This document shows positions 43,660 to 63,662 of a stretch of DNA of 64,000 nt, in pieces (the first letter of the stretch is position 1; each line of letters begins with the position of its first letter). The DNA is taken from IMG/VR virus record IMGVR_UViG_3300009164_000055; one strand, 5' to 3'. Below the pieces are notes generated by a model. It saw nothing but the letters and a program-made list of their open reading frames with translations, did no database searches and had not been told where the DNA came from. The DNA comes from a virus (Duplodnaviria > Heunggongvirae > Uroviricota > Caudoviricetes). A program made the position numbers and the translations under genes.

Positions 43660-43854
43660 TCATTTTTCTTTTGGAAATATTTCAGGATATCTTTCATACA
43701 TACAGTAATATAATACAGTGCCTCTAAGCTTGCTATAAAATGTTGTCTGTTCTTTACCGTCCATCATACACTCATACTTAGATGGATGTACGTGAACAAT
43801 CCTTGCCTTTAAATCTCCATTATAAAAAATGTAAGCAATCATCCACCAAGTCAT
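43660..43854 (-). CDS. small hypothetical protein, last gene of minus-strand operon
   Basis: ATGA overlap with cyclase stop. Confidence 0.35.
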   Translation of the reverse strand: MTWWMIAYIFYNGDLKARIVHVHPSKYECMMDGKEQTTFYSKLRGTVLYYCMYERYPEIFPKEK

Positions 43855-45905
43855 TTACTGGTAGCACGGTAAACACCGTCCCAATTATTTGGTGCAGACT
43901 TTTGCTCATTCATGCGATCTATCATAGCGTTGTAATAGCCAGAAAGTTCACCTTTCCACACTGGTCCCATTTCATAAGCCATAGCTAAAGCTCTACCCCA
44001 TTCACCAGTACGATAATAATTTAAAAATTTATTATGAGCTTTTTCTGCTGCACTATCTTTCTTTTCAACCACAGTATAAATCTTTACTGGTTCTGTCTTG
44101 CCCTTAACAGCAATGAGGTCCAGTTCAATTATTTGGTATACATCCCTAACCAATTCGGCAGTTTCTGGCCCAATAATGAGTTTGACTCCATAAGGCTTGG
44201 ATTGACCTTCCAAACGAGAAGCCAGATTAACGCCATCCCCCAAGCAAGTATAGTCAAAACGCTGATCACTGCCCATATTACCAACAACCACAGTGGCAGT
44301 GTTAATACCAAGACCCATCCCAAAAGCGGGTACACCTTCTCTTGTAACTTCATCATTAAATTCCTTTAGTGAGTTTAGCATCTGGAATGCAGTCTTCACA
44401 GCATCTAGAGCATGTTGTTCATTGTTTAGTGGTGCATTCCAGAATGCCATCTGAGCGTCACCGATATACTTATCAAGCGTTCCTTTGTTCTCTAGGATTG
44501 CCTTTGTCATGGCAGTCATGTAGCGATTCATGATCTTAGTTAAACCTTGAACGTCTCTTCCATAGTGTTCTGAGATTGTTGTGAAGCCACGAACGTCTGT
44601 GAACATGATAGAGAGCTTTTGCTCTGTTCCACCTAGCTGTAGCAAGTCTGGTTGCTTTTGCAACTGTGCAACAAGGTCTGGTGACAGATATGTACCAAAC
44701 TGTTTCTTGATTTGTTGCTTCTGAAGGAATTCTGAGATATAATTGACGATGTTGACATGTAGGTATATAAGAATCATTGATCCAATAATGAAACTTGAAT
44801 CAAGTAGAATTTTATAATGTTCCATCGCATAGTATGGTGCATATACAGCCGCTGCTAATAATCCACCTACCCAAACGAATGAGAAGCGTACACGTGAAAG
44901 ACCAATCACCAAAATGCCAAGGGTTAGGAAACCAGCCCATTCCACTAAAGGAACCCATGACGGAATGGAAACGCTTGATCCGTCAAGAAGGGTCTGCAAT
45001 AATGAAGCTTGAATATACTGTGGAGACTTTGCTCCCACAGGAGTTGGAACAGGGTTCTGAATTCCTTCAGCAGTTACGCCAAGAATTACAAACTTATTTT
45101 GAAGAGATGGTAATGGGGAACCAACATCATACTCCTGAAATGCCTTGTTCCAATTTACAAACACTCGACTATAAGGGTCTGTTGAAATTGTATCGTACTG
45201 AGGGACACGAACAGCCTCAACACCTGTCTCATTTATCTTTGCTTGATATGATGTATCACCAGCCGCATTTCGAAGCATCTCAAGAGCAAAAGATGGGTAA
45301 TACTCATTATTTGACATTGCCAAAAGAGGAATACGACGAACAACGCCGTCAACTTCTGGAAGGGTTGATGTTACGCCAATCCCAGAAGCTTTATTTTGGA
45401 CCGTAGCTACGTTATCAAGAATGCATTTATATTGTGGTAGATAATCGGTGGCTTTGCCGTCACCAACAACTGCTACACCTGTACGCTTTGTGTTTGAGTT
45501 ATCTCTAGCGCACTTTTCACTAGCAACTTGAGATAAGACTACAGGATTAGATAAAAGTGATTGTTGTAGATCGGTGTCATGATTGAAGCGATCTGGCTCA
45601 GGATATAGTATGGTAGTACCGACTAAGCCAGCACCGCTGCTGTAAGCGTCATTAATAACCTTAGCATAAACATCTCTTGAGAATGGATACTGCCCATACT
45701 TTTCCAAAGTTTTTTCGGAAATATTGAGCAATACAACATCAGTACTAACAACTTGCTGCTCTGCTACCATCAGGTTATCGTAGAAATTCAAGCGGGTTGA
45801 TTCGATAAGGCGAGGATCAGCTACCTTCAATGTGATCAGAAGAGAAAAAGTAAGTAAAGCTAACCATGGGGACAATAATGTCTTTTTAATTTTGTTGACT
45901 AACAA
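43851..45905 (-). CDS. CHASE2 sensor domain - class III adenylate/guanylate cyclase
   Basis: N-terminal signal/TM + large periplasmic CHASE2-like region + TM cluster, then FTDVRGFTTISEH...GDGVNLASRLE class III cyclase catalytic motifs. Confidence 0.75.
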   Translation of the reverse strand: MLVNKIKKTLLSPWLALLTFSLLITLKVADPRLIESTRLNFYDNLMVAEQQVVSTDVVLLNISEKTLEKYGQYPFSRDVYAKVINDAYSSGAGLVGTTILYPEPDRFNHDTDLQQSLLSNPVVLSQVASEKCARDNSNTKRTGVAVVGDGKATDYLPQYKCILDNVATVQNKASGIGVTSTLPEVDGVVRRIPLLAMSNNEYYPSFALEMLRNAAGDTSYQAKINETGVEAVRVPQYDTISTDPYSRVFVNWNKAFQEYDVGSPLPSLQNKFVILGVTAEGIQNPVPTPVGAKSPQYIQASLLQTLLDGSSVSIPSWVPLVEWAGFLTLGILVIGLSRVRFSFVWVGGLLAAAVYAPYYAMEHYKILLDSSFIIGSMILIYLHVNIVNYISEFLQKQQIKKQFGTYLSPDLVAQLQKQPDLLQLGGTEQKLSIMFTDVRGFTTISEHYGRDVQGLTKIMNRYMTAMTKAILENKGTLDKYIGDAQMAFWNAPLNNEQHALDAVKTAFQMLNSLKEFNDEVTREGVPAFGMGLGINTATVVVGNMGSDQRFDYTCLGDGVNLASRLEGQSKPYGVKLIIGPETAELVRDVYQIIELDLIAVKGKTEPVKIYTVVEKKDSAAEKAHNKFLNYYRTGEWGRALAMAYEMGPVWKGELSGYYNAMIDRMNEQKSAPNNWDGVYRATSK

Positions 45906-49756: not shown

Positions 49757-49832
49757 GCCGCTATAGCTCAGTTGGTAGAGCGTCTGCCTTGTAAGCAGAA
49801 TGTCTGGGGTTCGATTCCTCATGGCGGCACCA
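49757..49832 (+). tRNA. tRNA-Thr (anticodon TGT)
   Basis: cloverleaf by eye; GCTCAGTTGGTAGAGC D-arm, GGTTCGATTCC T-arm, CCA encoded. Confidence 0.7.
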
Positions 49833-49839
49833 GAATTTC

Positions 49840-49915
49840 GGGGACTTAGCTCAGTTGGGAGAGCGATAGCTTTGCAAGCTATAGGTCAAGGGTTCGATCC
49901 CCTTAGTCTCCACCA
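49840..49915 (+). tRNA. tRNA-Ala (TGC)
   Basis: acceptor GGGGACT/AGTCTCC incl. G3-U70, anticodon loop TTTGCAA. Confidence 0.7.
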
Positions 49916-49985
49916 AGTTAGGGGTTGACGTTTAATAAGCACGGATGTAATGTAATTGAATGTTGGCTTCGACAAAATAGATTAT

Positions 49986-50064
49986 AGCGGGATAGAGGAG
50001 TATGGCCGTCCTCGCCAGTTTCATAAGCTGGAAATCGTCGGTTCAAATCCGGCTCCCGCAACCA
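49986..50064 (+). tRNA. initiator tRNA-fMet (CAT)
   Basis: 3' half ATCGTCGGTTCAAATCCGGCTCCCGCAACCA nearly identical to E. coli tRNA-fMet; 1-72 mismatch (A·A). Confidence 0.65.
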
Positions 50065-50103
50065 ATCTATGCTCTTTGACATTGTTAGAAACGTAATATT
50101 TTA

Positions 50104-50180
50104 CGGGGATTAGCGCAGTCCGGTAGCGCACCTGCTTTGGGAGCAGGGGGTCGTAGGTTCGAATCCTACATTCCCGACCA
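50104..50180 (+). tRNA. tRNA-Pro (TGG)
   Basis: anticodon loop TTTGGGA, T-arm GTAGGTTCGAATCCTAC. Confidence 0.7.
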
Positions 50181-50310
50181 TTAAGTTTTCTTGTTTTTCC
50201 TTTAAAAAACAAGTGGTGGATCGCAGAATTAGATGCTAATTCGGCCCCAAATGTGGTGTATGCCAAAGACCATTGAAAGAGATGGGCAGCGAATGGGAGC
50301 TTCGCAGTAT

Positions 50311-50386
50311 GGTGGCTGTAGCTCAGAGGCAGAGCGTTGGGTTGTGAACCCAAATGTCGGGATTTCGAAACTCCTCAGTCACCCCA
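50311..50386 (+). tRNA. tRNA-His (GTG) with encoded G-1
   Basis: G-1 opposite C73, anticodon loop TTGTGAA; T-arm GGGATTTCGAAACTCCT imperfect. Confidence 0.55.
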
Positions 50387-50387
50387 T

Positions 50388-50465
50388 GTCGGTGTAGCTT
50401 AGCCCGGTCTAAAGCAACGGTCTCCAAAACCGTGATCGTGAGTTCGAATCTCACCACCTTCGCCA
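50388..50465 (+). tRNA. tRNA-Trp (CCA)
   Basis: anticodon arm ACGGTCTCCAAAACCGT identical to E. coli tRNA-Trp; acceptor stem shows two mismatches as read. Confidence 0.5.
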
Positions 50466-50487
50466 TTTTTTAAACAATAGGTGATTT

Positions 50488-50925
50488 ATGATTGAAGAAG
50501 CAAAACAGGCAATCTTGGCATCAAGTCAAAGTTCTTCTGTTTACATCGGTGCTGACAGCATCCGTTACAAAAAAGACGGTAAGTGGTATGCTAAGTATTC
50601 GACTGTGATTGTTCTTCACATAGATTCTAAGCGGGGCTGCAAACTATTCCATAACAGCGTTGATTTGCCAGACTATGGCAACTTAAAACAACGCTTGCTA
50701 ACAGAAGTTGGATATGCTATTGAAGCAGCAATCGAGATTATTGATGTGGTTGGTAAACGTCATTTGGAAGTTCATATTGACGTTAATCCAAATCCAAAGC
50801 ATAAATCTTCTGTTGCAATCAAGGAAGCCTTGGGTTATGTTAAGGGTTCACTTGGTATAGATGCTATTCCAAAGCCAAATGGATGGGCAGCTACTCATGC
50901 TGCTGACCATATGGCAAGACACTAA
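50488..50925 (+). CDS. RNase H-like fold protein (YkuK/DUF458-like) embedded in tRNA array
   Basis: VYIGADS...KYSTVIVLH pattern reminiscent of DUF458; 145 aa. Confidence 0.35.
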   Translation: MIEEAKQAILASSQSSSVYIGADSIRYKKDGKWYAKYSTVIVLHIDSKRGCKLFHNSVDLPDYGNLKQRLLTEVGYAIEAAIEIIDVVGKRHLEVHIDVNPNPKHKSSVAIKEALGYVKGSLGIDAIPKPNGWAATHAADHMARH

Positions 50926-50930
50926 ATAAT

Positions 50931-51005
50931 GCCTGATTAGCTCAGCGGTAGAGCAAATCCTTTACACGGATAAGGTCGGCGGTTCAATCCCGTCATCAGG
51001 TACCA
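50931..51005 (+). tRNA. tRNA-Val (TAC)
   Basis: close to E. coli tRNA-Val1 3' half (GGTCGGCGGTTCAATCCCGTCATCA). Confidence 0.7.
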
Positions 51006-51013
51006 AAGTTCAT

Positions 51014-51088
51014 TCCCTGATAGCTCAATGGTAGAGCTTTCGGCTGTTAACCGGACGGTTGTAGGTTCGAGTCCTACTCAGGGAGCCA
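51014..51088 (+). tRNA. tRNA-Asn (GTT)
   Basis: anticodon loop CTGTTAA; acceptor TCCCTGA/TCAGGGA. Confidence 0.7.
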
Positions 51089-51444
51089 GAGTTTAGTGAG
51101 TGTTATAGTTAGACGGCACTGTGTGTAAACTAATCGATTGTTGTAACACAGTAAAAGATGACGGTGCAAGTACGCAACATAGATAAACCATCTGCTCTCT
51201 ATCAATTTATAACGTACCCTAAGAACGCAAGTTCAATAGCAGAGGCGCTGATAAATTCTGCATAATGCTCCATTGTTGGGTTGGAGGCTCACTAATTCAA
51301 GTTTACTAGGCGGGTGCAGTACACCGTAAGTCCTCAGAAGTTGGGGAATGGCAAAGTGCTCAACGGCTATACAACTACTATTGTATAGCAACTGTAGTAG
51401 CAGTGTTGATGTGGTGCAAGTCCATACGTTCCCCTCATTTTAAT

Positions 51445-51520
51445 GGATCGTTAGCTCAATCGGGAGAGCACCGCACTGTCCATGCGGAGGTAAGGGGATC
51501 GAAACCCCTACGATTCGCCA
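51445..51520 (+). tRNA. tRNA-Asp (GTC), non-canonical T-loop ATCGAAA
   Basis: anticodon loop CTGTCCA; T-arm AGGGG-ATCGAAA-CCCCT (A at position 54). Confidence 0.55.
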
Positions 51521-51525
51521 TCAAT

Positions 51526-51600
51526 GGCCCTGTCGTCTAGTGGCTAGGACGCTAGGTTTTCAACCTAGAGAAGCGGGATCGAAACCCGTCAGGGCTACCA
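51526..51600 (+). tRNA. tRNA-Glu (TTC), 3-bp D-stem, T-loop ATCGAAA
   Basis: anticodon loop TTTTCAA. Confidence 0.55.
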
Positions 51601-51622
51601 TTTTTTAAGGTTGACAAACGAT

Positions 51623-51793
51623 ATGGATAACGATAATAAAGAAGCCGTATTGCTTAGTTTAAAGGAACGTAAAACTGCATGTTGGGCAATGGCTAAAGTG
51701 TTTCTCTTGAATGAAGATGCACACGGCGTTCACGACATGGGAGTTGAAATTCAAGCTTTAGACAGAGCAATCAAAGAGATTGAAAGTCTTTAA
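51623..51793 (+). CDS. doubtful small ORF (56 aa) without RBS, overlapping a TTGACA-N17-TAATAA promoter-like site
   Basis: ORF track 51611..51793 trimmed to ATG; may be non-coding. Confidence 0.2.
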   Translation: MDNDNKEAVLLSLKERKTACWAMAKVFLLNEDAHGVHDMGVEIQALDRAIKEIESL

Positions 51794-51800
51794 AGTTTAG

Positions 51801-51883
51801 GGTGACTAAAGTCGATAGTTTCGGCAATCGGTCTGTAAAACCGATCTTTCGGGGAGTGGAGCGTAACCACAGTCACCCACCAA
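51801..51883 (+). pseudogene. tRNA-Tyr-like degenerate element (acceptor GGTGACT/AGTCACC, anticodon arm with CTGTAAA loop, no T-arm)
   Basis: anticodon loop identical to E. coli tRNA-Tyr; 3' tail ...AGTCACCCACCA; lacks recognisable T-loop. Confidence 0.3.
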
Positions 51884-51910
51884 GTTTTTTGAGATAGTGA
51901 AAAATAGTTG

Positions 51911-51939
51911 TTGATATAAAGACAACGAATCACTATATT
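51911..51939 (+). promoter_or_regulatory. early-type promoter TTGATA-N17(…CGAATCAC)-TATATT in front of the large ORF-free region
   Basis: shares CGAATCAC spacer element with P1-P6 family. Confidence 0.4.
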
Positions 51940-51945
51940 GAGTTC

Positions 51946-53090
51946 AACAAAGAGATAAATGGCGGTGTAGCGTCAATAGGGTAAGGTCGGGTAACTGATC
52001 CCAAAGCAAGTTCTCCTACAGAACTGCGCCAGTGATGGTCCATCTATGCAAGCCTGAACAAACCCGAAAGGGTCCGTCAGTAGAATGGCGGTAGGCATTA
52101 AGTGCTGGTCGAAGGTCCGAAAGGATAGGTTACAGAGCCACATCGGTGAGTAGCTAAATGGGGTGGTACCCATACCAAGTCAAACCAACAGTACGATTGC
52201 TGAATGTTAACAGGTAGTTATTGAGTCTGACCCTGCAAGGAAAGGCAAGATAGCAGTCACAAAGTTGAAGGGATGACCGGAGACTTGAAGGATCGTTGAG
52301 TAGTTCGCAAGACGAAAGACAGGAGGTGTGCAGTATTTTGTATCCCAAAAGGATATGAAGCAGCAGTAGCAGCACATCTTGGTAGGTTTCTTACTTTGCA
52401 CAAACTTTAGGTGTCTGATCGCAAATCAAACAAAAAAAAGCAAAGTCTGCTACGGTACTATGTGAAAGGTGCTTAATACCACACTCGAAAGGGAATGTGG
52501 TTCATGGATACTCGCAAGGTTGAAGTGATTGTTCGGATTGAAAACGTAAGAGCTTAGCGGCTCCTAACTGCTCGTAAGGTAGACGGAAGATTGAGGGATG
52601 AATAGCATAGTATGACAGGTCAAACGCCAGACCTTAAAAAAGGCAGCACTGAGAGATACTAGATGACTGTAAAAAGCTCTAGTGGATAACGAGTTAACAA
52701 TCCTCGCAAGGGACTTGGTACGGCTCAAAGGCTCTCATATGAAGCAGTAATCTCATGCTTCTCAAAGACTTTTTAGATGAACACATTCTATAAGACTTAC
52801 GGCCTTCGGGTACGCTTGAGTGTGTTCTTCTAAAAAGTTTTGATGAACACACCAAACAGGACGCTGGCTCGTTGAAGTATTTGGGGGAAGTAGCTGCCCT
52901 TGGGTATGGAGAGATGAGTGTGTTCTTCTAAACTTTTTAAATCTACTCTGCTGGGGGTAGCAGTGTATGGACGCATACACTATGTGAGGATAGGGCCATC
53001 TTACCCTCACTGACATAACCCTAGCAATGGCTTAGGACAGGAAGCACCTGACTCCGAAATTCGCTCATGAGCAGAGTAGATTTAAATAGT
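51946..53090 (+). ncRNA. candidate large structured non-coding RNA (~1.15 kb, GNRA-tetraloop-rich, GC-enriched; GOLLD/ROOL-class or novel)
   Basis: no + strand ORF >=60 aa across 1.3 kb in an otherwise tightly packed genome; many C(n)GAAAG(n) / CGCAAG hairpins; 17-bp long-range inverted repeat 52936-52952 / 53069-53085; flanked by tRNAs. Confidence 0.45.
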
Positions 53091-53094
53091 TTAT

Positions 53095-53169
53095 GCCAGT
53101 ATAGCTCAGCGGTAGAGTACGGGACTCATATTCCCTTGGTCGCTAGTTCGATCCTAGCTACTGGTACCA
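53095..53169 (+). tRNA. tRNA with CAT anticodon, tRNA-Ile2 (lysidine) type more likely than elongator Met
   Basis: ACTCATATTCCCTTGGTCGCTAGTTCGATCC resembles E. coli tRNA-Ile2 (TTGGTC variable loop). Confidence 0.55.
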
Positions 53170-53220
53170 ATTTGTGGATTATTTTACAACTATATACAAT
53201 GTCTTTATATAAAGGAAATT

Positions 53221-53784
53221 ATGATGAATAATAACAATTTGCCACATCATTTGGGTGGACACGAAAACATGACACATGTTGATGATGGTGCTCTTCAATT
53301 TTTGATTGAACGCTATGATGCTAAGTCATTTCTTGATGTTGGCTGTGGTCCTGGTGGAATGGTTGACCTATCACTTGAAAAAGGATTGATTGCTCATGGT
53401 GTTGATGGAGATTTTACAGTAAATCATAAAAATCCAAATAACATTACCATTCATGATTATGTTACTGGTCCTGTAAAGCTCAATAGAAATTATGATATTG
53501 GTTGGTCTTGTGAATTTCTAGAGCATGTTGAAGAAGTTTATATGGCTAATTATATGGATACCTTCAAGTATTGTAAAGTTATTGCAGTCACACATGCTTT
53601 TCCAAATCAACAGGGCCATCATCATGTTAACTTGAAAAGTCCAGAATATTGGATTGAAAAGTTTTCTTTTTATGGTTTTTCACAGGATATTGAAGCAACT
53701 CAGTTGATCCGTGAAAAGTCAACAATGGGCGATGAATACATTCGTTTGAGCGGTCTTGTATTTTTGAATTCAAATTTTAGTTAA
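53221..53784 (+). CDS. class I SAM-dependent methyltransferase
   Basis: motif I FLDVGCGPGGM, motif II-like ITIHDYV. Confidence 0.55.
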   Translation: MMNNNNLPHHLGGHENMTHVDDGALQFLIERYDAKSFLDVGCGPGGMVDLSLEKGLIAHGVDGDFTVNHKNPNNITIHDYVTGPVKLNRNYDIGWSCEFLEHVEEVYMANYMDTFKYCKVIAVTHAFPNQQGHHHVNLKSPEYWIEKFSFYGFSQDIEATQLIREKSTMGDEYIRLSGLVFLNSNFS

Positions 53785-53789
53785 ATATT

Positions 53790-53864
53790 GCACCATTAGC
53801 TCAGTAGTAGAGCATTCGACTGATAATCGAAAGGTGACAGGGGCGGTACCTGTATGGTGTACCA
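53790..53864 (+). tRNA. tRNA-Ile (GAT), unusual T-loop GGCGGTA
   Basis: anticodon arm TTCGA-CTGATAA-TCGAA; T-arm ACAGG-GGCGGTA-CCTGT. Confidence 0.5.
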
Positions 53865-53908
53865 AAAATTACTAATACTTCTAGTAAATGGAAGTTTCTA
53901 TAATTTGT

Positions 53909-53985
53909 GGCCGTGTAGTCCAACTGGCAGAGACACTAGTTTTAGGTACTAGGTGTTGGGAGTTCGAATCTCTCCACGGCTACCA
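53909..53985 (+). tRNA. class-I tRNA with anticodon TAG (Leu-decoding anticodon but short 5-nt variable loop)
   Basis: anticodon arm CTAGT-TTTAGGT-ACTAG; variable loop GTGTT; canonical T-arm. Confidence 0.45.
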
Positions 53986-53990
53986 TTTAT

Positions 53991-54067
53991 ATCCTTGTAG
54001 CTCAACTGGAGAGAGCACTTGATTACGAATCAAGAGGTTACAGGTTCGAATCCTGTCAAGGATGCCA
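53991..54067 (+). tRNA. tRNA-Arg (ACG)
   Basis: anticodon loop TTACGAA, perfect acceptor ATCCTTG/CAAGGAT. Confidence 0.7.
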
Positions 54068-54108
54068 ATCCTTATAAATAGTAAAAACTATTTCGTTGAG
54101 GACAATAC

Positions 54109-54813
54109 ATGAAACCTTTTAAATCATTTATCGAAGAATCATTGATTAAACAACTTACGTTGAAGTATCATGGTAAGCTTAATCCAAAGATTTGGAAGAA
54201 AGATCAACTGAAGGATGGTATCGCTGAACTTTTGATTAAGAAAGCATATGAGTTTGCCGTCTATTCTGGTGTGAGCAAAGGTCGTATTAAAGATATTGTC
54301 ATCACTGGCGGTAATGTCAATTACAACTATACCAAGTTCTCTGATATCGATGTTCATTTAATGTGTGATGTTGACGGCTTGAATAGCGATAAGCTTTATG
54401 AAAAGAAAGTTTCATGGACAGCTAGTCACAAGAATTTGAAGGTTGCTGGATATCCATTAGAGTTTTATGCTGCTAATAACAAAGATCATTTTCCAAAGGG
54501 ACAGGGTGTATATTCTATCCTTGAAAATAAATGGTTGATCATACCAAAACATCTTGATCATTTAGATATTCTGCATGATCCAAAAGTGATTGACAAGATC
54601 AATTACTATGTTAAGTATATCAGAACACTTCTAAAAAGTGGAACAGAAACAGAAATCAAGGCTTTTAAAGATAAGCTACATACAATGCGTGGTGCTGGAT
54701 TGCATCATGGTGGTGAATTTTCGGTTGAGAATGTTCTTTATAAAGACCTTCGTAATCGTGGTCTGCTTGATAAGTTGAATGCAAAAATTCACCATACAGG
54801 TGAAGAAGTTTAA
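54109..54813 (+). CDS. nucleotidyltransferase-fold protein with CTS-like N-terminus (MKPFKSFIEES)
   Basis: GGNVNYNYTKFSDIDVHL fits hG[GS]x9-13Dh[DE]h pol-beta NTase motif. Confidence 0.45.
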   Translation: MKPFKSFIEESLIKQLTLKYHGKLNPKIWKKDQLKDGIAELLIKKAYEFAVYSGVSKGRIKDIVITGGNVNYNYTKFSDIDVHLMCDVDGLNSDKLYEKKVSWTASHKNLKVAGYPLEFYAANNKDHFPKGQGVYSILENKWLIIPKHLDHLDILHDPKVIDKINYYVKYIRTLLKSGTETEIKAFKDKLHTMRGAGLHHGGEFSVENVLYKDLRNRGLLDKLNAKIHHTGEEV

Positions 54814-54818
54814 AGTTT

Positions 54819-54890
54819 GCGGGTAAGCATAAGGTATGCAGTCGGTCTTCCAAACCGTACATAGAGTGAGTTCGATTCTCATTATCCGCT
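54819..54890 (+). pseudogene. tRNA-Gly(TCC)-like element with truncated D-loop (possible tRNA pseudogene)
   Basis: acceptor GCGGGTA/TATCCGC, anticodon loop CTTCCAA, T-arm GTGAG-TTCGATT-CTCAT, but 5-nt D-loop and no CCA. Confidence 0.3.
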
Positions 54891-54955
54891 CATAGAGTTC
54901 CAGACCACCAACACCTTTTTTAGGAAAATCTCATTCATTAGAAACTAAGAAAAAA

Positions 54956-55099
54956 ATGAGTGAATCTAAAAAAGGAAAATTTACTGGTGAAAAAAATTCA
55001 CAATATGGTACAATGTGGATAACCAATGGAAATATAAATAAAAAAGTAAAATGTGATGATATCATCCCTGATGGATGGTATAAAGGAAGATTGAAATAA
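54956..55099 (+). CDS. homing-endonuclease C-terminal DNA-binding module remnant (47 aa)
   Basis: TGEKNSQYGTMWITNG...IPDGWYKGR resembles repeated G.K.S.E...G..W..NG / P.GW..GR modules of T4 Seg/Tev-type endonucleases; no catalytic domain. Confidence 0.35.
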   Translation: MSESKKGKFTGEKNSQYGTMWITNGNINKKVKCDDIIPDGWYKGRLK

Positions 55100-55192
55100 T
55101 AGTTTGATGTGAATACAAAGCGTTCGTCGCTGTCGCAATATCACACACATTCGTACCAATACGTGCGGTACAGATTTATTATGAGGGAACAT

Positions 55193-56443
55193 ATGTTAAA
55201 CAATGCTTATATTTTATATCTAGATGAACCAAAATCATTAAAGTATCTACAAGACTGCATCGATTCATGTGAGCAGTTTCCTAATATCAATCCCATTCCA
55301 GTAGCTGGTCCACTTCGTGCTTCATACAAAGAATTGTGTGAAGAATTTGGTATCGGCATCATTCCTTATTACGTTAATCAGATGGCCACCAATGCACAGA
55401 CGTTGAACAATACGTTCTCCTGTAATGGTGGTCATTATCGTATTTGGAAGAAGATTGTCGAAAGCGGTGAAGCTGGTGTTGTGTTTGAGCACGATGTAGT
55501 TGTCAAGCAAGACTTTACAACTCTTGAGCCAGTTGATGGTGAAATTCTCTGGCTTGGTCCACGTATTCATAATGTAGATGACTACAACTATCCTGATGGA
55601 TGGGAAAGCAGATACGTAGAAGTTGATCGTTGGGAAGGCACCCATGCCTATGCCATTACACCAAACACAGCACAGATGCTGCTTGACTGTATTGATGAGT
55701 ATGGCATCAATGATTCGATTGATGGTCAGTTAGGTATGAGAAATATCTTTGACATGCGTATGAGGGCGGTTGATCCACCTCCTGCTGTAGCTGTTGTTTC
55801 TGGTGATCGTCAATCAACGATTGAACTTAGCGGAAATGCTGCAACATGGAATGCGTATAGTACTGATGGATTTCGTGCTGGTCTGAAGGCTGGTATGGAG
55901 CCACCTGTTCGTCAGCTATATTTCACTAACAGTAGCTTCATGAAACACACTGGTGTTCTTGATACTATTCTTAAGGAAAATGGCTTCTACGAAAACAAAC
56001 CATTAAAGGTTCTTGTTATCGGTGGTGAAGAAGGTATGTCAACTTTATGGTTGAGCAATAAGTTGCTTCGTCATGACGACAGTCAGTTATTCTGTGCTGG
56101 TGGCTTTGAAAAAAAGAATTTGGAAATATTCAACTTCAACACATATTTCAGTAAGTACTATTACAAGTTGAACGCAATCAATTGTGATGATCCCACTGAT
56201 CTTTTGATTGCAAGCTGTGGTGATCCTGATATTGTCTTAGATGTTGTGTATATTGGCGGTAATACAAACACAAAAAATACAGTATTTAATGGTACTGCTT
56301 CTTTCTCAATGTTAAGGGATGGTGGTCTGATTATTTTTGATAATTATGATCAGCCAATCGTTAAGGCGGGTGTTGATATCATTGATAATGCAACCTGTAT
56401 GGAATCGCTTTACAAAGGCGATGTTGCAGTGTACAAATACTGA
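55193..56443 (+). CDS. putative glycosyltransferase (GT25-like N-terminus) with uncharacterised C-terminal domain
   Basis: start chosen at ATG with SD GAGGG; ORF track offers 55109 GTG. Confidence 0.3.
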   Translation: MLNNAYILYLDEPKSLKYLQDCIDSCEQFPNINPIPVAGPLRASYKELCEEFGIGIIPYYVNQMATNAQTLNNTFSCNGGHYRIWKKIVESGEAGVVFEHDVVVKQDFTTLEPVDGEILWLGPRIHNVDDYNYPDGWESRYVEVDRWEGTHAYAITPNTAQMLLDCIDEYGINDSIDGQLGMRNIFDMRMRAVDPPPAVAVVSGDRQSTIELSGNAATWNAYSTDGFRAGLKAGMEPPVRQLYFTNSSFMKHTGVLDTILKENGFYENKPLKVLVIGGEEGMSTLWLSNKLLRHDDSQLFCAGGFEKKNLEIFNFNTYFSKYYYKLNAINCDDPTDLLIASCGDPDIVLDVVYIGGNTNTKNTVFNGTASFSMLRDGGLIIFDNYDQPIVKAGVDIIDNATCMESLYKGDVAVYKY

Positions 56444-56447
56444 GTGT

Positions 56448-56521
56448 TGCCCTTTCCTCTAATGGTAAGAGAGCGGACTTTGAATCCGTCAATTGGGGTT
56501 CGAGTCCCTGAAGGGCATCCA
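56448..56521 (+). tRNA. tRNA-Gln (TTG)
   Basis: anticodon loop CTTTGAA; 3-bp D-stem; CCA encoded. Confidence 0.6.
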
Positions 56522-56549
56522 AATTTTATTTTATAATGGAGAAAAAACT

Positions 56550-56786
56550 ATGAGTGACAATATTTCTGTAAATGAACTACGTCAGTACATTGAACGTATT
56601 GAGCGTCTTGAAGAAGAACTTGATGGTATCAAGGGTGATCGTAAGGACGTATATGCTGAAGTTAAGGCTGTAGGCTTTGACGTTAAGGCAGTACGCAAGA
56701 TTGTTCGTATTCGCAAGATGGACCCAACACAGCGCCAGATTGAAGAAGCGGTAGAAGATACATATCGTACTGCATTAGGTCTATAA
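56550..56786 (+). CDS. hypothetical coiled-coil protein
   Basis: ORF track 56493 trimmed (5' part overlaps tRNA-Gln); SD GGAG. Confidence 0.4.
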   Translation: MSDNISVNELRQYIERIERLEEELDGIKGDRKDVYAEVKAVGFDVKAVRKIVRIRKMDPTQRQIEEAVEDTYRTALGL

Positions 56787-56801
56787 TAAAAGGATATATT
56801 T

Positions 56802-57032
56802 ATGGCAAAAACACTTGTAAATTTTCTTGTTGAAGAAGCTGATCTTCGTCGTTTTGATAACATAGCAGAAATTTTAGGAAGAACTCGCACATCAATTTTG
56901 AGAGAATACATAAATGACTTTTCTGCTGAACAGTCTATTATGATAGCACAGAAAAAGCTTAAACTACAGGAATTAGATCGTATTCTTGCAGAATATAAAT
57001 CGGTACTCACGCCTTCACAAGAACAAGACTAG
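56802..57032 (+). CDS. ribbon-helix-helix (CopG/Arc-like) DNA-binding protein
   Basis: KTLVNFLVEEADLRRFDNIAEILGRTRTSILREYIN fits beta-strand + two helices RHH pattern. Confidence 0.45.
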   Translation: MAKTLVNFLVEEADLRRFDNIAEILGRTRTSILREYINDFSAEQSIMIAQKKLKLQELDRILAEYKSVLTPSQEQD

Positions 57033-57066
57033 GCTTTAATAAATATACTAAAAGAAGGGAAACCAA

Positions 57067-57699
57067 ATGAAAACTTTTAGTGCATTTATTTCAGAAGAGC
57101 GTGAGAACAATACACGTAAGACACAGGTTGCCACAACTGGTGGTACCTATAGAAAGACAGGCGAATTCCTTAAGGATAAGCTTGCTCCTAAGTCAAAGAT
57201 CATCAGCATTGGTGCTGGTCTAGATCAAACACGTGAGGGTCTTCGTGCTGGTCTTGGTGACGGTCATACTATTGATGATCATGAACCAAATCCTGAAGGA
57301 CGTAAGACCAAGCCTGAATTCACAGATGCATCACGTATTCCAAAGAACGGATATGATGCTGCTGTATCACACAATGTTTTAAATGTTGTTGAACCACATG
57401 TACGTGAACAGGTTATGCATTCGATCTTTAATTCCGTCAAGGAAGGTGGTCATGCTATTATCGGTACACGTAAGTGGAGTGGTGATATCAACACCAACAA
57501 GAACTTTGAAAAGGGCGATGAACCTAAATCAATGTGGGTCAAGAAGGGTAATGCCACATCATATCAAAAGGGATTTGATGGTAACGAACTAAAGGACTAC
57601 GTTGAAGACTATGCAAAGCGCAATGGTCATCAGGTTGAAGTCAAGAAGGTTCCATTAGCAGCCAATGGCGTACATATAAAAATTATAAAAAAGGGTTGA
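57067..57699 (+). CDS. methyltransferase-like Rossmann protein with CTS-like N-terminus (MKTFSAFISEE)
   Basis: IISIGAGLD (motif I-like), DAAVSHNVL, EGGHAIIG. Confidence 0.4.
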   Translation: MKTFSAFISEERENNTRKTQVATTGGTYRKTGEFLKDKLAPKSKIISIGAGLDQTREGLRAGLGDGHTIDDHEPNPEGRKTKPEFTDASRIPKNGYDAAVSHNVLNVVEPHVREQVMHSIFNSVKEGGHAIIGTRKWSGDINTNKNFEKGDEPKSMWVKKGNATSYQKGFDGNELKDYVEDYAKRNGHQVEVKKVPLAANGVHIKIIKKG

Positions 57700-58085
57700 T
57701 GATGAAAAGTTTATCACAATTCATTGCAGAATCTTTATTTAGCGGCGAACATGTATTACAGCATTTCAACAATACCCATCATGAGCATGGACAAAATCCT
57801 GAGATGGAAAAATATATAAAAAATACAAAGTTTAAACTCACTAAAATACATCCTGACAAACTTCCAAGCGAAGAGAGTTTATGGGATAAAGACGATCCAT
57901 TTCATAGAGTTGTTGATATCGATAATGATACCGTCAAAAAGAATGAAATGAGAATTGATGCTGGTAAAAAATTACCACCAATTATCATGGGTAAAGGTGC
58001 CATAATCGATGGTCATCACAGGGCTTTAGCAGCAAAAAATAAAAATAAACATATTGATGCATATGTCCCTGTAGAAAAGGGTTGA
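57699..58085 (+). CDS. ParB-like nuclease-domain protein with CTS-like N-terminus (MMKSLSQFIAES)
   Basis: GAIIDGHHRALAAK DGHHR motif; paralogous in domain content to 40640..41107. Confidence 0.5.
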   Translation: MMKSLSQFIAESLFSGEHVLQHFNNTHHEHGQNPEMEKYIKNTKFKLTKIHPDKLPSEESLWDKDDPFHRVVDIDNDTVKKNEMRIDAGKKLPPIIMGKGAIIDGHHRALAAKNKNKHIDAYVPVEKG

Positions 58086-58110
58086 CACCCACCTCATAAT
58101 TGCATACTAT
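58082..58110 (+). promoter_or_regulatory. promoter TTGACA-N17-TACTAT
   Basis: precedes SD GGAGG and arfA-like ORF. Confidence 0.4.
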
Positions 58111-58136
58111 AAGTTCATAAGCGATGGAGGAAAGTC

Positions 58137-58283
58137 ATGAAATCACGTAATCCAATAGCCCGATCACTTCGCAGTGCACATCTTAAGCCTAAGATTGTAC
58201 GTGCAAAGAAGGGTAAAGGTTCTTATCGCCGTAGCAACAAAAAAATTGCTACGGCGGTTGACTCTTTTCTCCGTATTGCTTAA
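58137..58283 (+). CDS. ArfA-like alternative ribosome-rescue factor candidate (48 aa)
   Basis: PIARSLRSAHLKPKIVRAKKGKGSYRR parallels E. coli ArfA [27 protein letters not shown] including the KGKGS motif; strong SD GGAGG. Confidence 0.4.
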   Translation: MKSRNPIARSLRSAHLKPKIVRAKKGKGSYRRSNKKIATAVDSFLRIA

Positions 58284-58312
58284 TAAAATTTGAGATAAAC
58301 GGAGATTGTATT

Positions 58313-58645
58313 ATGACAGATTGTTATTGGTATCAGCGTGGAAAGTATCAGCAATTGGCTGAAGCTCTTCAGAGCCGTATTCCTATGCAGGGTGAGATTG
58401 CTAATAAGGATGAAAATCCCAAGCTTGAAGAGTATCGTAAGGTTTCTAACCAGTACTACGATCTTTTCAACAACGGACTGCATAATCAACCATATCACTT
58501 CAAGCGCCGTTTTGGTGTAACTGTTGTGGAAGCTCGTTCCATTCTTCGTGTTGGTGGTATCCTTGAGTGTGATATTCTTCGCACCATTGAAGCTAGCGTA
58601 GATCAGTTCATTCTTGAAGCTGCTGCTGAACAAGGATTAATTTAA
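58313..58645 (+). CDS. hypothetical protein
   Basis: 110 aa, SD GGAG. Confidence 0.4.
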   Translation: MTDCYWYQRGKYQQLAEALQSRIPMQGEIANKDENPKLEEYRKVSNQYYDLFNNGLHNQPYHFKRRFGVTVVEARSILRVGGILECDILRTIEASVDQFILEAAAEQGLI

Positions 58646-58653
58646 TAATTTAT

Positions 58654-58730
58654 GGACCCTTAGCTCATTTGGTTAGAGCGTCCGACTTTTAATCGGAAGG
58701 TGCTGGGTTCGAGTCCCAGAGGGTCCACCA
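58654..58730 (+). tRNA. tRNA-Lys (TTT)
   Basis: perfect acceptor GGACCCT/AGGGTCC, anticodon loop CTTTTAA. Confidence 0.75.
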
Positions 58731-58736
58731 TAACTC

Positions 58737-58801
58737 GCCATATGTGTCAATATATGATTAGTTATAGTACTTAATTAGCCATATGTGACCATATATGATC
58801 A
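58737..58801 (+). repeat. two 24-nt direct repeats GCCATATGTG(T/A)C(A/C)ATATATGAT(T/C)A between tRNA-Lys and tRNA-Ser
   Basis: copies at 58737-58760 and 58778-58801. Confidence 0.5.
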
Positions 58802-58805
58802 CTTA

Positions 58806-58893
58806 GGAACGTGGGCAGGATGGTAATGCAATCGCTTGCTAAGCGACACACCCTGAAAGGGGTGACAGGGTTCGATTCCCTGACGTTCCGCCA
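58806..58893 (+). tRNA. tRNA-Ser (GCT), class II
   Basis: 88 nt, variable-arm hairpin CACCC-TGAAA-GGGGTG. Confidence 0.7.
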
Positions 58894-58901
58894 TTCTATT
58901 G

Positions 58902-58930
58902 TTGACAAGACTATATACTTTGGTTATTGT
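58902..58930 (+). promoter_or_regulatory. promoter TTGACA-N17-TATTGT
   Basis: precedes 58962 gene. Confidence 0.4.
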
Positions 58931-58961
58931 AACAGTCGTTTGAAATTATCTGGAGATTAGT

Positions 58962-59225
58962 ATGCCATCATTAGATAAATGGTTTGATGATCCTGATACC
59001 ATTCAGGAAGATGAACCAACAACAAATGAATGGATTGATATGCCTGAGTTTGTTCAGGAAAGCAAACCACCATTTGCTAAGATTATTTTTCGTTTTGACA
59101 GTCAAGAAGACTTGGATGAATTTTCTAAGTTGATTGGCCAGAAATTGACACCAAAGACTAAAAGTGCTTGGTATCCAGAACTAGAGCGAGGCAAAAATGC
59201 TGCAAAGCGTTGGATACAAGAATAA
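58962..59225 (+). CDS. hypothetical acidic protein
   Basis: 87 aa. Confidence 0.35.
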   Translation: MPSLDKWFDDPDTIQEDEPTTNEWIDMPEFVQESKPPFAKIIFRFDSQEDLDEFSKLIGQKLTPKTKSAWYPELERGKNAAKRWIQE

Positions 59226-60111
59226 GCGTGAGAACCGCTATCCTGTGTATATTGTATCGAAAGGTCGCTATACCAATATGCTAACTAATAGGTCGCTGAA
59301 TAGACTTGGCGTTCCTTTTAGGGTTATTGTAGAGGAAGAAGAGTTTGACGAATACGCTAAGGTTGTTGGTGCAGAAAAGCTTCTGATCCTTCCTAAGAAA
59401 TACAAAGAAGAATATGAAGTTCTTGATGATCTTGGGCTGACAAAGAGCACAGGACCCGGTCCTGCTCGTAACTTTGCATGGGACCATTCTATTTCTGAAG
59501 GTCATGCATGGCATTGGGTATTAGATGATAATCTTGATGACTTCCATCGTCTAAATAGAAACATGAAGTCTCCTATGAGGACTAATGTGAATTTTGTGGC
59601 GACTGAAGATTTTGTAGATAGGTATGAGAACCTAGCAATTGCTGGCTTTAACTATTACTCTTTCTGTAAGTGTGATGCTAAAGCTAACCCATATGTTTTG
59701 AATACAAGGATTTATTCTTGTCTTCTTATTCGCAACGACATTCCTTTCAAATGGCGTGGTCGTTATAACGAAGACACTATCCTGTGTCTTGACGTGTTGA
59801 CTGCTGGATGGGCAACTATTCAGTTGAATGCTTTTTTACAAGGCAAGGTCACTACTCAGCGCATGGGTGGTGGTAACAGCAAAGACTTCTATGAAGTTGA
59901 AGGTACACTTGCTAAGTCTAAGATGTTAGCAGATGCATATCCTGATATTGCATCTGTTGTATGGAAGTTTAATCGCTGGCATCATCATGTGGATTATAGT
60001 CCGTTTAAGAATAATTCATTGAAGAGAAAGGCAAGTTTTATCCCACAAAATCAAATCAATGAATATGGTTTGAAACTTATTGATGGCGATAAAAACGATA
60101 AAAGGGATTAA
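59197..60111 (+). CDS. hypothetical protein (start uncertain: 59197 ATG, 59245 GTG or 59278 ATG)
   Basis: 304 aa. Confidence 0.35.
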   Translation: MLQSVGYKNKRENRYPVYIVSKGRYTNMLTNRSLNRLGVPFRVIVEEEEFDEYAKVVGAEKLLILPKKYKEEYEVLDDLGLTKSTGPGPARNFAWDHSISEGHAWHWVLDDNLDDFHRLNRNMKSPMRTNVNFVATEDFVDRYENLAIAGFNYYSFCKCDAKANPYVLNTRIYSCLLIRNDIPFKWRGRYNEDTILCLDVLTAGWATIQLNAFLQGKVTTQRMGGGNSKDFYEVEGTLAKSKMLADAYPDIASVVWKFNRWHHHVDYSPFKNNSLKRKASFIPQNQINEYGLKLIDGDKNDKRD

Positions 60112-60116
60112 AATAG

Positions 60117-60194
60117 GAGTCGGTGGCGGAGTGGTCCAACGCAAGGGATTGCAAATCCCTAAAGCCGTGAGTTCGAATCTCACCCGGCTCTCCA
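60117..60194 (+). tRNA. tRNA-Cys (GCA)
   Basis: anticodon arm AGGGA-TTGCAAA-TCCCT as in E. coli tRNA-Cys. Confidence 0.65.
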
Positions 60195-60209
60195 ACATAT
60201 GGGAACACA

Positions 60210-61357: not shown

Positions 61358-61366
61358 TCAAGATGT

Positions 61367-61930: not shown

Positions 61931-61932
61931 AC

Positions 61933-62106: not shown

Positions 62107-62136
62107 TAATAGGACAGACAATCTAAGGAATATATT

Positions 62137-63651: not shown

Positions 63652-63662
63652 ATAAAACTACT

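What the first reader, a model, noticed from the sequence alone, without database searches (positions are those of the whole stretch)
51946..53090. About 1.15 kb ORF-free, GC-enriched, tetraloop-rich region inside the tRNA array: candidate large ornate ncRNA
In a genome where genes overlap or are separated by under 60 nt, a stretch over 1.1 kb has no + strand ORF of 60 aa or more. It is visibly GC-richer than its surroundings, as structured RNAs in AT-rich genomes are. It contains many GNRA-capped hairpins:
- ACCCGAAAGGGT
- GGTCCGAAAGGAT
- CTCGCAAGGTTG
- CCTCGCAAGGGAC
- CACTCGAAAGGGAATGTGG
It also holds a perfect 17-bp long-range pairing (52936-52952 with 53069-53085) enclosing further hairpins, and internal sequence repeats (GAGTGTGTTCTTCTAAA at about 52818 and about 52916). 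An early-type promoter (51911-51939) precedes it, and it is flanked by tRNA genes. That flanking is the genomic context reported for the large bacterial/phage RNAs GOLLD and ROOL. It may be a member of that class or a new large phage ncRNA.
Basis: partly seen in the sequence, partly recalled or inferred. Interest (0 to 1): 0.8.

Follow-up and report, generated by a model that had tools for sequence, protein, structure and literature searches.

The report
GOLLD RNA plus unclassified small RNA
The gene-free stretch holds a phage copy of GOLLD, a known giant RNA that assembles into hollow RNA-only cages, followed by two long hairpins and a small conserved structured RNA that matches no catalogued RNA family.

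Summary

**GOLLD.** Rfam's GOLLD model (RF02032) matches 52323-52759 end to end at 203 bits (curated cut-off 150, E 7e-56). That is the conserved 3' domain. The ~365 nt upstream are the matching 5' domain. They are homologous in about 20 metagenomic phage loci, and 66 of 88 predicted pairs show compensatory changes. A sigma-70/T4-early-type promoter (51911-51939) drives it.

**The stretch is not one RNA.** GOLLD ends at 52759. After it come:
- two tandem long hairpins (52765-52939) of a recurrent stem family that the closest relative lacks;
- a separate ~165-nt structured RNA (52929-53093) that abuts tRNA-Met.

**The small RNA.** It has 26 distinct homologues, all inside phage tRNA arrays. Helices covary and there is a pseudoknot. 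Nothing in Rfam 15 matches it (E up to 10), and T4 rnaC/rnaD do not match either. In relatives it sits upstream of GOLLD, so it is an independent gene.

**A difference from relatives.** This GOLLD's internal linker has lost the tRNA that 17 of 21 relatives carry there.

**Verdict.** A new member of a known family, ordinary for a phage tRNA island, with a modestly novel neighbour. All functions remain inferred.

The parts
51911..51939 (+). Sigma-70 / T4-early-type promoter of GOLLD (-35 TTGATA, 17-nt spacer, -10 TATATT). The predicted start of transcription is about 51946.
   Evidence: Consensus scan, 10 of 12 positions. Conserved as a perfect TTGACA-17-TATAAT in L003. Similar GTTTACA/GTTGACA...TATAAT-like boxes lie 10-25 nt upstream of GOLLD in at least 8 relatives. 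The start site is inferred.
51957..52322 (+). GOLLD 5' domain, the variable half of the family. It contains the GNRA hairpins ACCCGAAAGGGT and GUCCGAAAGGAU.
   Evidence: nhmmer finds homologues directly upstream of the GOLLD core in about 20 loci, with E from 1e-101 to 1e-10, and a weak hit in Phaeobacter phage MD18. RNAalifold on 18 sequences predicts 88 pairs, 66 of them with compensatory changes. There is no sequence-level match to the 5' domain of the cryo-EM construct env-38.
52323..52759 (+). GOLLD 3' domain, the universally conserved half.
   Evidence: Rfam RF02032, 203.2 bits against a gathering score of 150, E 6.6e-56, model positions 1-416 of 416. The 3' end coincides with the end of the env-38 construct used for cryo-EM. 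In relatives L108, L080 and L055 an intrinsic-terminator-like hairpin follows exactly here.
52384..52440 (+). GOLLD internal linker, A-rich. In the published structure this segment is disordered and lies inside the cage. Here it has no tRNA and appears to hold a relic of a deleted tRNA-Lys.
   Evidence: It is the unpaired stretch of the Rfam alignment. ARAGORN finds a tRNA or tRNA-like gene in this linker in 17 of 21 relatives, but none in the window or L061. The window linker aligns to fragments of the tRNA-Lys(CUU) in the L003 linker. The relic reading is inferred.
52765..52841 (+). HP1, a long hairpin. The arms are 52765-52788 and 52818-52841, about 23 bp with one U.U mismatch, around a 29-nt interior.
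   Evidence: Inverted repeat I2 and fold. The same arm sequences (AGACUUAUUAGAUGAACACA / UGUGUUCUUCUAAUAAGUUU) flank unrelated interiors of 20-100 nt in 22 fetched loci, some from the same contigs. The inner stem covaries.
52831..52939 (+). HP2, a second hairpin of the same family. The arms are 52831-52852 and 52918-52939 around a 65-nt interior. It shares 11 nt with HP1 on one side and with the next element on the other.
   Evidence: Inverted repeat I3 and fold. HP1 and HP2 together are absent from the closest relative L061, where the small RNA follows GOLLD directly.
52929..53093 (+). Independent ~165-nt structured RNA with no Rfam family. Features: closing stem P1 (52929-52952 with 53070-53093); P2; P3 with an invariant GACG loop (52970-52973); P4 whose loop GCCAU (52995-52999) pairs with AUGGC (53027-53031) as a pseudoknot; P5 with an AAGCA loop (53042-53046). 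It ends 1 nt before tRNA-Met.
   Evidence: My covariance model R1 scores 133 bits (E 4e-30) here and nothing else in the window. It gives 40 hits, 26 distinct sequences counting the window's, in fetched loci. 22 of 33 pairs show compensatory change, and 0 of 500 shuffles reach that. P1 is built from at least 7 unrelated sequences. The fold z-score is -6.8. No Rfam family matches at E up to 1 here or up to 10 in five relatives.
53095..53169 (+). tRNA-Met (CAU). It bounds the region and is probably co-transcribed.
   Evidence: ARAGORN and Rfam tRNA at 62 bits. No + strand terminator-like site lies between the promoter and this tRNA.

Best explanation
The ORF-free stretch is a composite, rightward-transcribed RNA locus inside the tRNA array of an uncultured T4-like myophage. 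The phage is distantly related to Pelagibacter phage HTVC008M and Methylophilales phage Melnitz.

**1. GOLLD.** From an early-type promoter at 51911-39 the phage makes a GOLLD RNA of about 800 nt (about 51946/51957-52759).
- It has a clade-specific 5' domain and the universally conserved 3' domain.
- By homology with the solved GOLLD env-38, it most likely folds into two domains and self-assembles, without protein, into a closed multimeric RNA shell. env-38 forms a 14-mer with D7 symmetry, and its internal linker faces the lumen.
- Its biological role is unknown for the whole family. Here the linker has lost the tRNA that most relatives carry.

**2. Read-through.** There is no terminator, so transcription most likely continues through two long hairpins (HP1 and HP2), a ~165-nt independently folding small RNA, and tRNA-Met.

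**3. Processing.** The long, sequence-conserved stems probably define and protect RNA ends. RNase P cleavage at the tRNA 5' end would leave a 3' end at the foot of a stem of about 24 bp. The stems are also of RNase III substrate size. The result would be separate stable RNAs: GOLLD, the small RNA and the tRNA.

**Shown:** family membership, domain boundaries, covariation, modular independence of the small RNA, and the tRNA-array context.
**Inferred:** start of transcription, co-transcription, processing, cage formation, and any function.
For: **GOLLD identity and extent**
- Rfam GOLLD scores 203.2 bits against a cut-off of 150, over the full model.
- The 5' domain is homologous in about 20 loci, with 66 of 88 pairs showing compensatory changes.
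- Promoters are conserved upstream of GOLLD.
- The GOLLD 3' end equals the end of the env-38 construct. Terminators sit at that point in L108, L080 and L055.
- Published GOLLD facts come from Kretsch et al. 2025 (PMC12286853): a 5' domain at 1-420 and a 3' domain at 421-833, a disordered linker at 497-538, a 14-mer D7 cage, tRNAs sometimes in the linker, and a location in phages near tRNA islands.
- Linker tRNAs occur in 17 of 21 relatives but not here.

**The small RNA is a separate gene**
- It directly follows GOLLD in L061, but lies about 0.5-1 kb upstream of it, before a tRNA-Thr, in L041, L125, L158 and L176.
- It occurs without a detectable GOLLD in many loci.
- Covariation is and the variety of P1 sequences.
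- In L149 it fills the 176-nt gap between two tRNAs.

**The hairpin family**
- It recurs directly in front of tRNAs.
- No + strand terminator lies in 51946-53169.

**Phage type**
- T4-like genes are present (RNR, RnlA-like RNA ligase, Dda-like helicase).
- One cyclase-domain protein is 37% identical to its HTVC008M and Melnitz counterparts.
Against: - There are no expression data, so the transcript ends, co-transcription and processing are all unverified.
- The 5' domain has no detectable sequence similarity to that of the solved env-38 RNA. In env-38 that domain makes the cap contacts. The L21b loop that forms one env-38 bridge is a plain GNRA tetraloop in this clade. Stoichiometry or assembly may therefore differ here.
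- Folding energy does not separate the GOLLD part from coding DNA (z -0.96).
- The hairpin arms are conserved in sequence, not only in pairing. This fits a sequence-specific factor or DNA-level recombination as well as it fits RNase III or end protection.
- HP1 and HP2 are missing from the closest relative, so they are dispensable for GOLLD.
Confidence: 0.87

Rival explanations
1. The whole 1.15 kb is one new giant ncRNA: a GOLLD variant with a 330-nt 3' extension that belongs to the functional RNA.
For: No terminator separates the parts. A long hairpin follows the GOLLD 3' end within 6-25 nt in at least 10 relatives. The elements share overlapping stem arms.
Against: The Rfam model and the cryo-EM construct both end at 52759. 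Some relatives terminate there. HP1 and HP2 are absent in the closest relative, L061. The small RNA lies upstream of GOLLD, or without GOLLD, in other loci. The interiors of the hairpins are unrelated between the window and L003, although their GOLLD sequences are highly similar.
Confidence: 0.06
2. HP1 and HP2, and the outer stem of the small RNA, are DNA-level elements rather than functional RNA stems. They would be miniature inverted-repeat insertions or recombination cassettes that shuffle cargo within phage tRNA arrays.
For: - The 22-24-bp inverted arms are conserved in sequence while the interiors are unrelated and vary from 20 to 100 nt.
- HP1 and HP2 look like an insertion relative to L061, flanked by a 20-nt direct repeat (52759-78 and 52923-42, 75% identical).
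- Two copies at different sites occur in L038, L099 and L176.
Against: - Copies occur only inside tRNA arrays, on the tRNA strand, and usually end 0-5 nt before a tRNA. There are none elsewhere in the 64-kb window.
- Inner-stem positions covary to keep pairing, and a U.U mismatch is invariant. Both point to selection on the RNA or hairpin form.
- No transposase or integrase was seen nearby, though I did not search for one systematically.
Confidence: 0.15
3. The region hides a protein gene, either frameshifted, in an alternative genetic code, or on the minus strand.
For: Minus-strand ORFs of 64-84 aa exist.
Against: These ORFs have no Pfam match. The substitution pattern in relatives is compensatory base-pairing, not codon-periodic. 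The full-length GOLLD match stands.
Confidence: 0.01
4. The ~165-nt element is a diverged member of a known class: tmRNA (which follows GOLLD in roseophages), a Y-RNA-like RNA, an RNase P fragment, T4 rnaC/rnaD, or a self-cleaving ribozyme.
For: In Phaeobacter phage MD18 and DSS3_MAL1 a permuted tmRNA lies about 100-200 nt downstream of GOLLD. T4 keeps two small stable RNAs in its tRNA cluster. By eye, short strings resemble the CR-I and CR-V regions of RNase P.
Against: No Rfam family matches at E up to 1 here, or at E up to 10 at the element's position in five relatives. ARAGORN finds no tmRNA. Model R1 finds nothing in the T4 tRNA region (best 9.5 bits, not at rnaC or rnaD). The RNase-P-like strings occur in the wrong order for a P4 helix (read from the sequence).
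Confidence: 0.08

Closest known systems
GOLLD RNA (Rfam RF02032; Weinberg et al. 2009; cryo-EM of env-38, Kretsch et al. 2025, PDB 9MEE)
   Same: Full-length, above-threshold match to the conserved 3' domain. Total size about 800 nt with a two-domain layout. An A-rich internal linker follows the first 3'-domain hairpin. It is phage-encoded, inside a tRNA island and next to a tRNA-Met. The conserved CAAAA hairpin loop and the 3'-terminal GUAAUCUCA motif are present.
   Different: The 5' domain is a clade-specific variant with no sequence similarity to that of env-38. The linker has no tRNA, unlike 17 of 21 relatives. The L21b loop is a GNRA tetraloop rather than the env-38 kissing loop. There is an extra insertion in the penultimate hairpin. 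Oligomeric state was not tested.
ROOL RNA (RF03087)
   Same: Same kind of genomic context (phage tRNA islands), large ornate structure, and cage-forming in published work.
   Different: No match at E up to 1. It is a different family.
T4 rnaC / rnaD (species 1 and 2 small stable RNAs in the T4 tRNA cluster)
   Same: This is the closest analogy for the ~165-nt element. They are small, stable, non-tRNA RNAs of unknown function, encoded in a T4-like phage's tRNA cluster right next to tRNAs. From my own knowledge, they are released from the tRNA precursor, and species 1 is an RNase III substrate in vitro.
   Different: No homology: model R1 scores no more than 9.5 bits anywhere in the T4 tRNA region. 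T4 rnaC carries a tRNA-like T-arm, which this element lacks.
Permuted tmRNA downstream of GOLLD in roseophages (Phaeobacter phage MD18, DSS3_MAL1)
   Same: A second structured RNA gene placed just 3' of GOLLD within a tRNA array.
   Different: The element here is not a tmRNA by ARAGORN or by the Rfam tmRNA models.
RNase III processing stems and 3' protective hairpins (rRNA operon stems, phage T7 R sites, REP-type stabilisers)
   Same: HP1, HP2 and P1 are stems of 18-25 bp with a conserved internal mismatch. They bracket structured cargo in a polycistronic RNA.
   Different: The arm sequence is conserved across divergent phages, and no cleavage data exist. The resemblance is functional inference only.

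Membership tests
GOLLD (RF02032) | Covariance-model score at or above Rfam's gathering threshold, covering the whole model | tested here: met
   203.2 bits against 150, model positions 1-416 of 416, E 6.6e-56.
GOLLD (RF02032) | A structured 5' domain of about 400 nt, less conserved than the 3' domain, contiguous with it, for a total of about 800 nt | tested here: met
   51957-52322 is homologous in about 20 GOLLD loci. 66 of 88 predicted pairs are compensatory. The total is about 800-815 nt.
GOLLD (RF02032) | A variable, unstructured linker after the first hairpin of the 3' domain, sometimes carrying a tRNA | tested here: met
   A-rich linker at 52384-52440. tRNAs are present in the same place in 17 of 21 relatives and absent here.
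GOLLD (RF02032) | Encoded by phages or prophages, typically next to tRNA islands | tested here: met
   18-21 tRNA genes in 49757-63750. T4-like phage genes are present.
GOLLD (RF02032) | Protein-free self-assembly into a closed 14-mer (D7) nanocage | not testable with these tools
   Known only for env-38 (PMC12286853). The 5' domain and the L21b loop differ here.
GOLLD (RF02032) | Expression rising during lytic growth | not testable with these tools
   No transcript data. Only a conserved early-type promoter is seen.
ROOL (RF03087) | Match to the family covariance model | tested here: not met
   No hit at E up to 1 in 51600-53200.
tmRNA (RF00023, RF01849, RF04321), considered for 52929-53093 | A tRNA-like domain plus a tag reading frame, with a match to the tmRNA models | tested here: not met
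   ARAGORN finds no tmRNA. Rfam gives no hit at E up to 1. The same search does find tmRNA in the roseophage loci.
T4 rnaC/rnaD-type small stable RNAs, considered for 52929-53093 | Sequence and structure homology to T4 rnaC or rnaD | tested here: not met
   Model R1 against the T4 tRNA region with filters off: best 9.5 bits, not at rnaC or rnaD.

The most novel reading that the evidence does not exclude
The ~165-nt element at 52929-53093 is a previously undescribed class of structured phage RNA.
- It has a junction closed by a long stem, a loop-to-junction pseudoknot, and 47 invariant positions.
- It lives only in phage tRNA arrays and would be cut out by the tRNA-processing machinery.
- The contrast between strongly conserved joining regions and freely covarying stems is what ribozymes and ligand- or protein-binding RNAs show.
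- It may act on tRNAs or on tRNA-targeting host factors, or work together with GOLLD, with which it shares arrays in at least 7 distinct contigs.

Separately, this GOLLD clade (different 5' domain, tRNA-less linker) might assemble with a different stoichiometry from the solved 14-mer.
Probability: 0.55. Interest if true: 0.6.

Novelty: new member of a known kind. Interest (0 to 1): 0.4.

Why it matters
**GOLLD.** GOLLD is among the largest bacterial and phage ncRNAs and forms an RNA-only nanocage, yet nobody knows what it does. One more member is not news in itself: 806 non-redundant members were already reported.

This locus and its relatives do offer useful natural variation:
- a clade in which nearly every GOLLD carries a tRNA in the lumen-facing linker, with anticodons that include amber- and opal-reading ones;
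- two members, this window and L061, that have lost that tRNA;
- a 5' domain unlike the solved one.

Comparing these could test whether the cage exists to hold the linker tRNA.

**The neighbours.** The adjacent small RNA and the conserved stem cassettes show that phage tRNA arrays carry more non-tRNA structured RNAs than current annotation captures.

Tried and rejected
- **Folding energy as evidence of structure.** The z-score is -0.96 for the GOLLD part and no different from coding controls. It is uninformative.
- **Long-range pairing 52170-81 with 52712-23** (12 nt, I5). It is kept only in the two closest relatives and is at chance level (4-8 of 12) in 15 others. The 5' partner is already in a covarying local helix. 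Rejected.
- **Mapping env-38 numbering onto the window.** A pairwise MAFFT alignment gave 48% identity and was unreliable. A 5'-domain profile did not find env-38. The env-38 sequence I used, read from the supplementary PDF, is 816 nt rather than 833, so some letters were lost.
- **HP2 or the third domain of L003 as decayed copies of the small RNA.** Model R1 finds only one copy in the window, and none in L003. Not supported, despite a CAG-GACG-CUG hairpin in HP2.
- **T4 rnaC/rnaD homology.** None.
- **RNase P resemblance.** GGCUUA and GGAAGCACC resemble CR-V and CR-I, but in the wrong order, and there is no Rfam hit. Dismissed.
- **First DNA pattern for viral contigs**. My spacing was wrong, so it matched nothing, not even the window. 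One scan wasted.
- **GenBank phages.** No near match. The only distant matches are two roseophage GOLLD cores.
- **Bacterial and archaeal genomes.** The small RNA's signature is absent from 185,579 species genomes.
- **Fremin et al. 2023 catalogue of 8,495 viral candidate structured RNAs.** It might already list the small RNA, but its supplements are not held. Untested.
- **HTVC008M.** The first 50 kb shows no tRNA array next to the homologous cyclase gene. I did not pursue this further.

Full report
**What is there**

I read 51500-53600 and scanned the whole window with ARAGORN and Rfam. Rfam reports one non-tRNA family: GOLLD (RF02032) at 52323-52759 on the + strand. The score is 203.2 bits against a gathering score of 150, with E 6.6e-56, and the match covers model positions 1-416 of 416. 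A more permissive scan of 51600-53200 (E up to 1) adds nothing except tRNA-Met and one chance hit. It finds no ROOL, intron, RNase P or tmRNA.

- There is no + strand ORF of 60 aa or more.
- GC is 0.449, against 0.391 for the window and 0.34-0.38 for neighbouring ORFs.
- The quoted GNRA hairpins are present and modestly enriched: 7 against 2.8 +/- 1.7, with 16 of 500 shuffles reaching 7.
- The long inverted repeat and the exact 18-nt direct repeat are real.
- A promoter-like site lies at 51911-39.
- tRNAs flank both sides.

Folding energy alone does not mark the region, with z -0.96.

**GOLLD: extent and anatomy**

The Rfam model covers only the conserved 3' domain. Kretsch et al. 2025 (PMC12286853) describe the solved env-38 RNA:
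- It is 833 nt, with a 5' domain at 1-420 and a 3' domain at 421-833.
- It has a disordered linker at 497-538 that faces the inside of a 14-mer cage with D7 symmetry.
- Their construct ends with GGUGUAUUCUCAGCCU. That is the end of the Rfam model and corresponds to window position 52759.

To find the 5' half I collected relatives:
- One locus came from a neighbouring methyltransferase gene (L003).
- At least 120 GOLLD loci came from IMG/VR, using a pattern built from two conserved 3'-domain motifs.

nhmmer shows that 51946-52322 is homologous to the sequence just upstream of the GOLLD core in about 20 of them. An 18-sequence alignment gives a consensus fold of 88 pairs, and 66 of these have compensatory changes.

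Conservation starts at about 51957. The promoter is a perfect TTGACA-17-TATAAT in L003. T4-early-like boxes sit 10-25 nt upstream of GOLLD in many relatives. GOLLD is therefore about 51946/51957-52759, roughly 800 nt.

The 5' domain of this clade has no sequence-level similarity to that of env-38. This is in line with the family's known 5' variability.

**The linker**

ARAGORN finds a tRNA or tRNA-like gene inside the GOLLD linker in 17 of 21 relatives. The anticodons include CUU, UCU, UAG, GAU, GCU, UUU, and the stop-reading UCA and CUA. The window and its closest relative L061 have none. Their 57-nt linker aligns to scattered fragments of the L003 tRNA-Lys, so I read it as a deletion relic. 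That is an inference.

**Beyond GOLLD: two hairpins**

The last 330 nt are not part of GOLLD. Three long inverted repeats follow one another:
- HP1: 52765-88 with 52818-41.
- HP2: 52831-52 with 52918-39.
- A third: 52929-52 with 53070-93.

HP1 and HP2 belong to a recurrent family. Its arms read AGACUUAUUAGAUGAACACA and UGUGUUCUUCUAAUAAGUUU, with an invariant U.U mismatch and a covarying inner stem. The interiors are unrelated and span 20-100 nt.

Members of this family follow the GOLLD 3' end and directly precede a tRNA in at least 10 relatives. Some arrays have a second copy elsewhere. They are absent in L061. In L108, L080 and L055 a terminator-like hairpin sits in their place.

I conclude that a stable hairpin at the GOLLD 3' end is the common theme. 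The stems probably define or protect RNA ends, through RNase III, or through RNase P at the next tRNA leaving a hairpin-capped 3' end. A DNA-level cassette or MITE reading is not excluded.

**Beyond GOLLD: a separate small RNA**

The third repeat closes a ~165-nt element whose fold z-score is -6.8.

*Position in relatives.* nhmmer finds it right after GOLLD in L061, but upstream of GOLLD in L041 and L125.

*Homologues.* Pattern scans of IMG/VR and metagenomes gave 41 instances and 26 distinct sequences. The pattern left the stem positions of one helix (P5) free.

*Structure.* On a 23-sequence alignment, a structure of four helices plus a loop-to-junction pseudoknot pairs 88.7% of cells. 22 of 33 pairs show compensatory change. 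No shuffle of 500 reaches this, and slid controls fall to 33-45% paired. Further details:
- Helices P2, P3 and P5 covary.
- The pseudoknot (GCCAU with AUGGC) has one covarying pair, G-C to A-U, seen in two sequences (L041 and L148).
- The closing stem P1 uses at least 7 unrelated sequences.

*Family searches.* A covariance model built from this alignment (R1) gives these results:
- It hits only this site in the window, at 133 bits.
- It hits 40 sites in fetched loci.
- It finds nothing in the T4 tRNA region, including rnaC and rnaD.

Rfam 15 has no match at the element's position at E up to 10 in five relatives. The signature is absent from 185,579 bacterial and archaeal species genomes.

*Context.* Every instance lies in a tRNA array on the tRNA strand. 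Most end within a few nucleotides of the next tRNA, and some begin at the CCA end of the previous one. In L149 the element fills the 176-nt gap between two tRNAs in an array of 20.

It is therefore an independent, conserved, structured RNA gene. Its function is unknown. My best guess is a stable trans-acting RNA released by tRNA-processing enzymes.

**Host phage**

The window encodes ribonucleotide reductase, an RnlA-like RNA ligase and a Dda-like helicase. One 683-aa cyclase-domain protein is 37% identical to proteins of Pelagibacter phage HTVC008M and Methylophilales phage Melnitz. No GenBank phage shares the region at the DNA level, apart from the GOLLD cores of two roseophages. Those two are already in the published GOLLD set.

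**Verdict**

The locus adds three things:
- a tRNA-less linker variant of GOLLD;
- a conserved family of hairpin cassettes;
- a small structured RNA that I could not place in any described family.

The novelty of the small RNA is provisional. A 2023 catalogue of viral candidate structured RNAs (PMC10690425) could not be checked, because its supplements are not held.

Noticed in passing
window 51800-51883 (+), just upstream of the GOLLD promoter: An unannotated tRNA-like gene, GGGUGACU...AGUCACCC-ACCA. It has an 8-bp acceptor stem, a 6-bp anticodon stem with loop CUGUAAA (anticodon GUA), a 4-bp T stem with an odd loop AGCGUAA, and an encoded CCA. ARAGORN and the Rfam tRNA model do not call it. 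It is conserved in at least 10 related loci. In L165 its homologue scores 33.7 bits on the tRNA-Sec model, below that model's threshold. The 8/4 stem geometry recalls the 'allo-tRNAs' with non-standard cloverleaves.
   Followed up: partly
GOLLD linkers of related loci, e.g. L042:11094-11167 and L055:6491-6565; also L003, L038, L041, L099, L078: In this GOLLD clade 17 of 21 linkers carry a tRNA or tRNA-like gene with varied anticodons. Two would read stop codons: UCA in L042 and CUA in L055. If the linker sits inside the cage, these would be caged suppressor-type tRNAs.
   Followed up: partly
L001 3542-3957 and L002 3388-3804 (Phaeobacter phage MD18, DSS3_MAL1): In these roseophages a permuted alphaproteobacterial tmRNA lies about 60-210 nt downstream of GOLLD, and a tRNA-Arg sits in the GOLLD linker. 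In MD18 neither GOLLD nor the tmRNA is annotated.
   Followed up: no
window 53790-53861 and 54819-54890 (+): Rfam calls two further tRNAs here (54.6 and 33.9 bits) that ARAGORN did not report.
   Followed up: no
window 52759-52778 and 52923-52942: A 20-nt direct repeat (TTCTCAAAGACTTTTTAGAT and TTCTTCTAAACTTTTTAAAT, 75% identical) brackets HP1 and HP2. This is exactly the segment missing in the closest relative L061. It looks like the footprint of a tandem duplication or insertion.
   Followed up: partly
window 43851-45905 (-): A 683-aa protein matches phrog_35576 end to end (E 6e-224). It is 37% identical to the 'adenylate/guanylate cyclase' proteins of Pelagibacter phage HTVC008M and Methylophilales phage Melnitz, and is useful as a marker of the phage lineage.
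   Followed up: no
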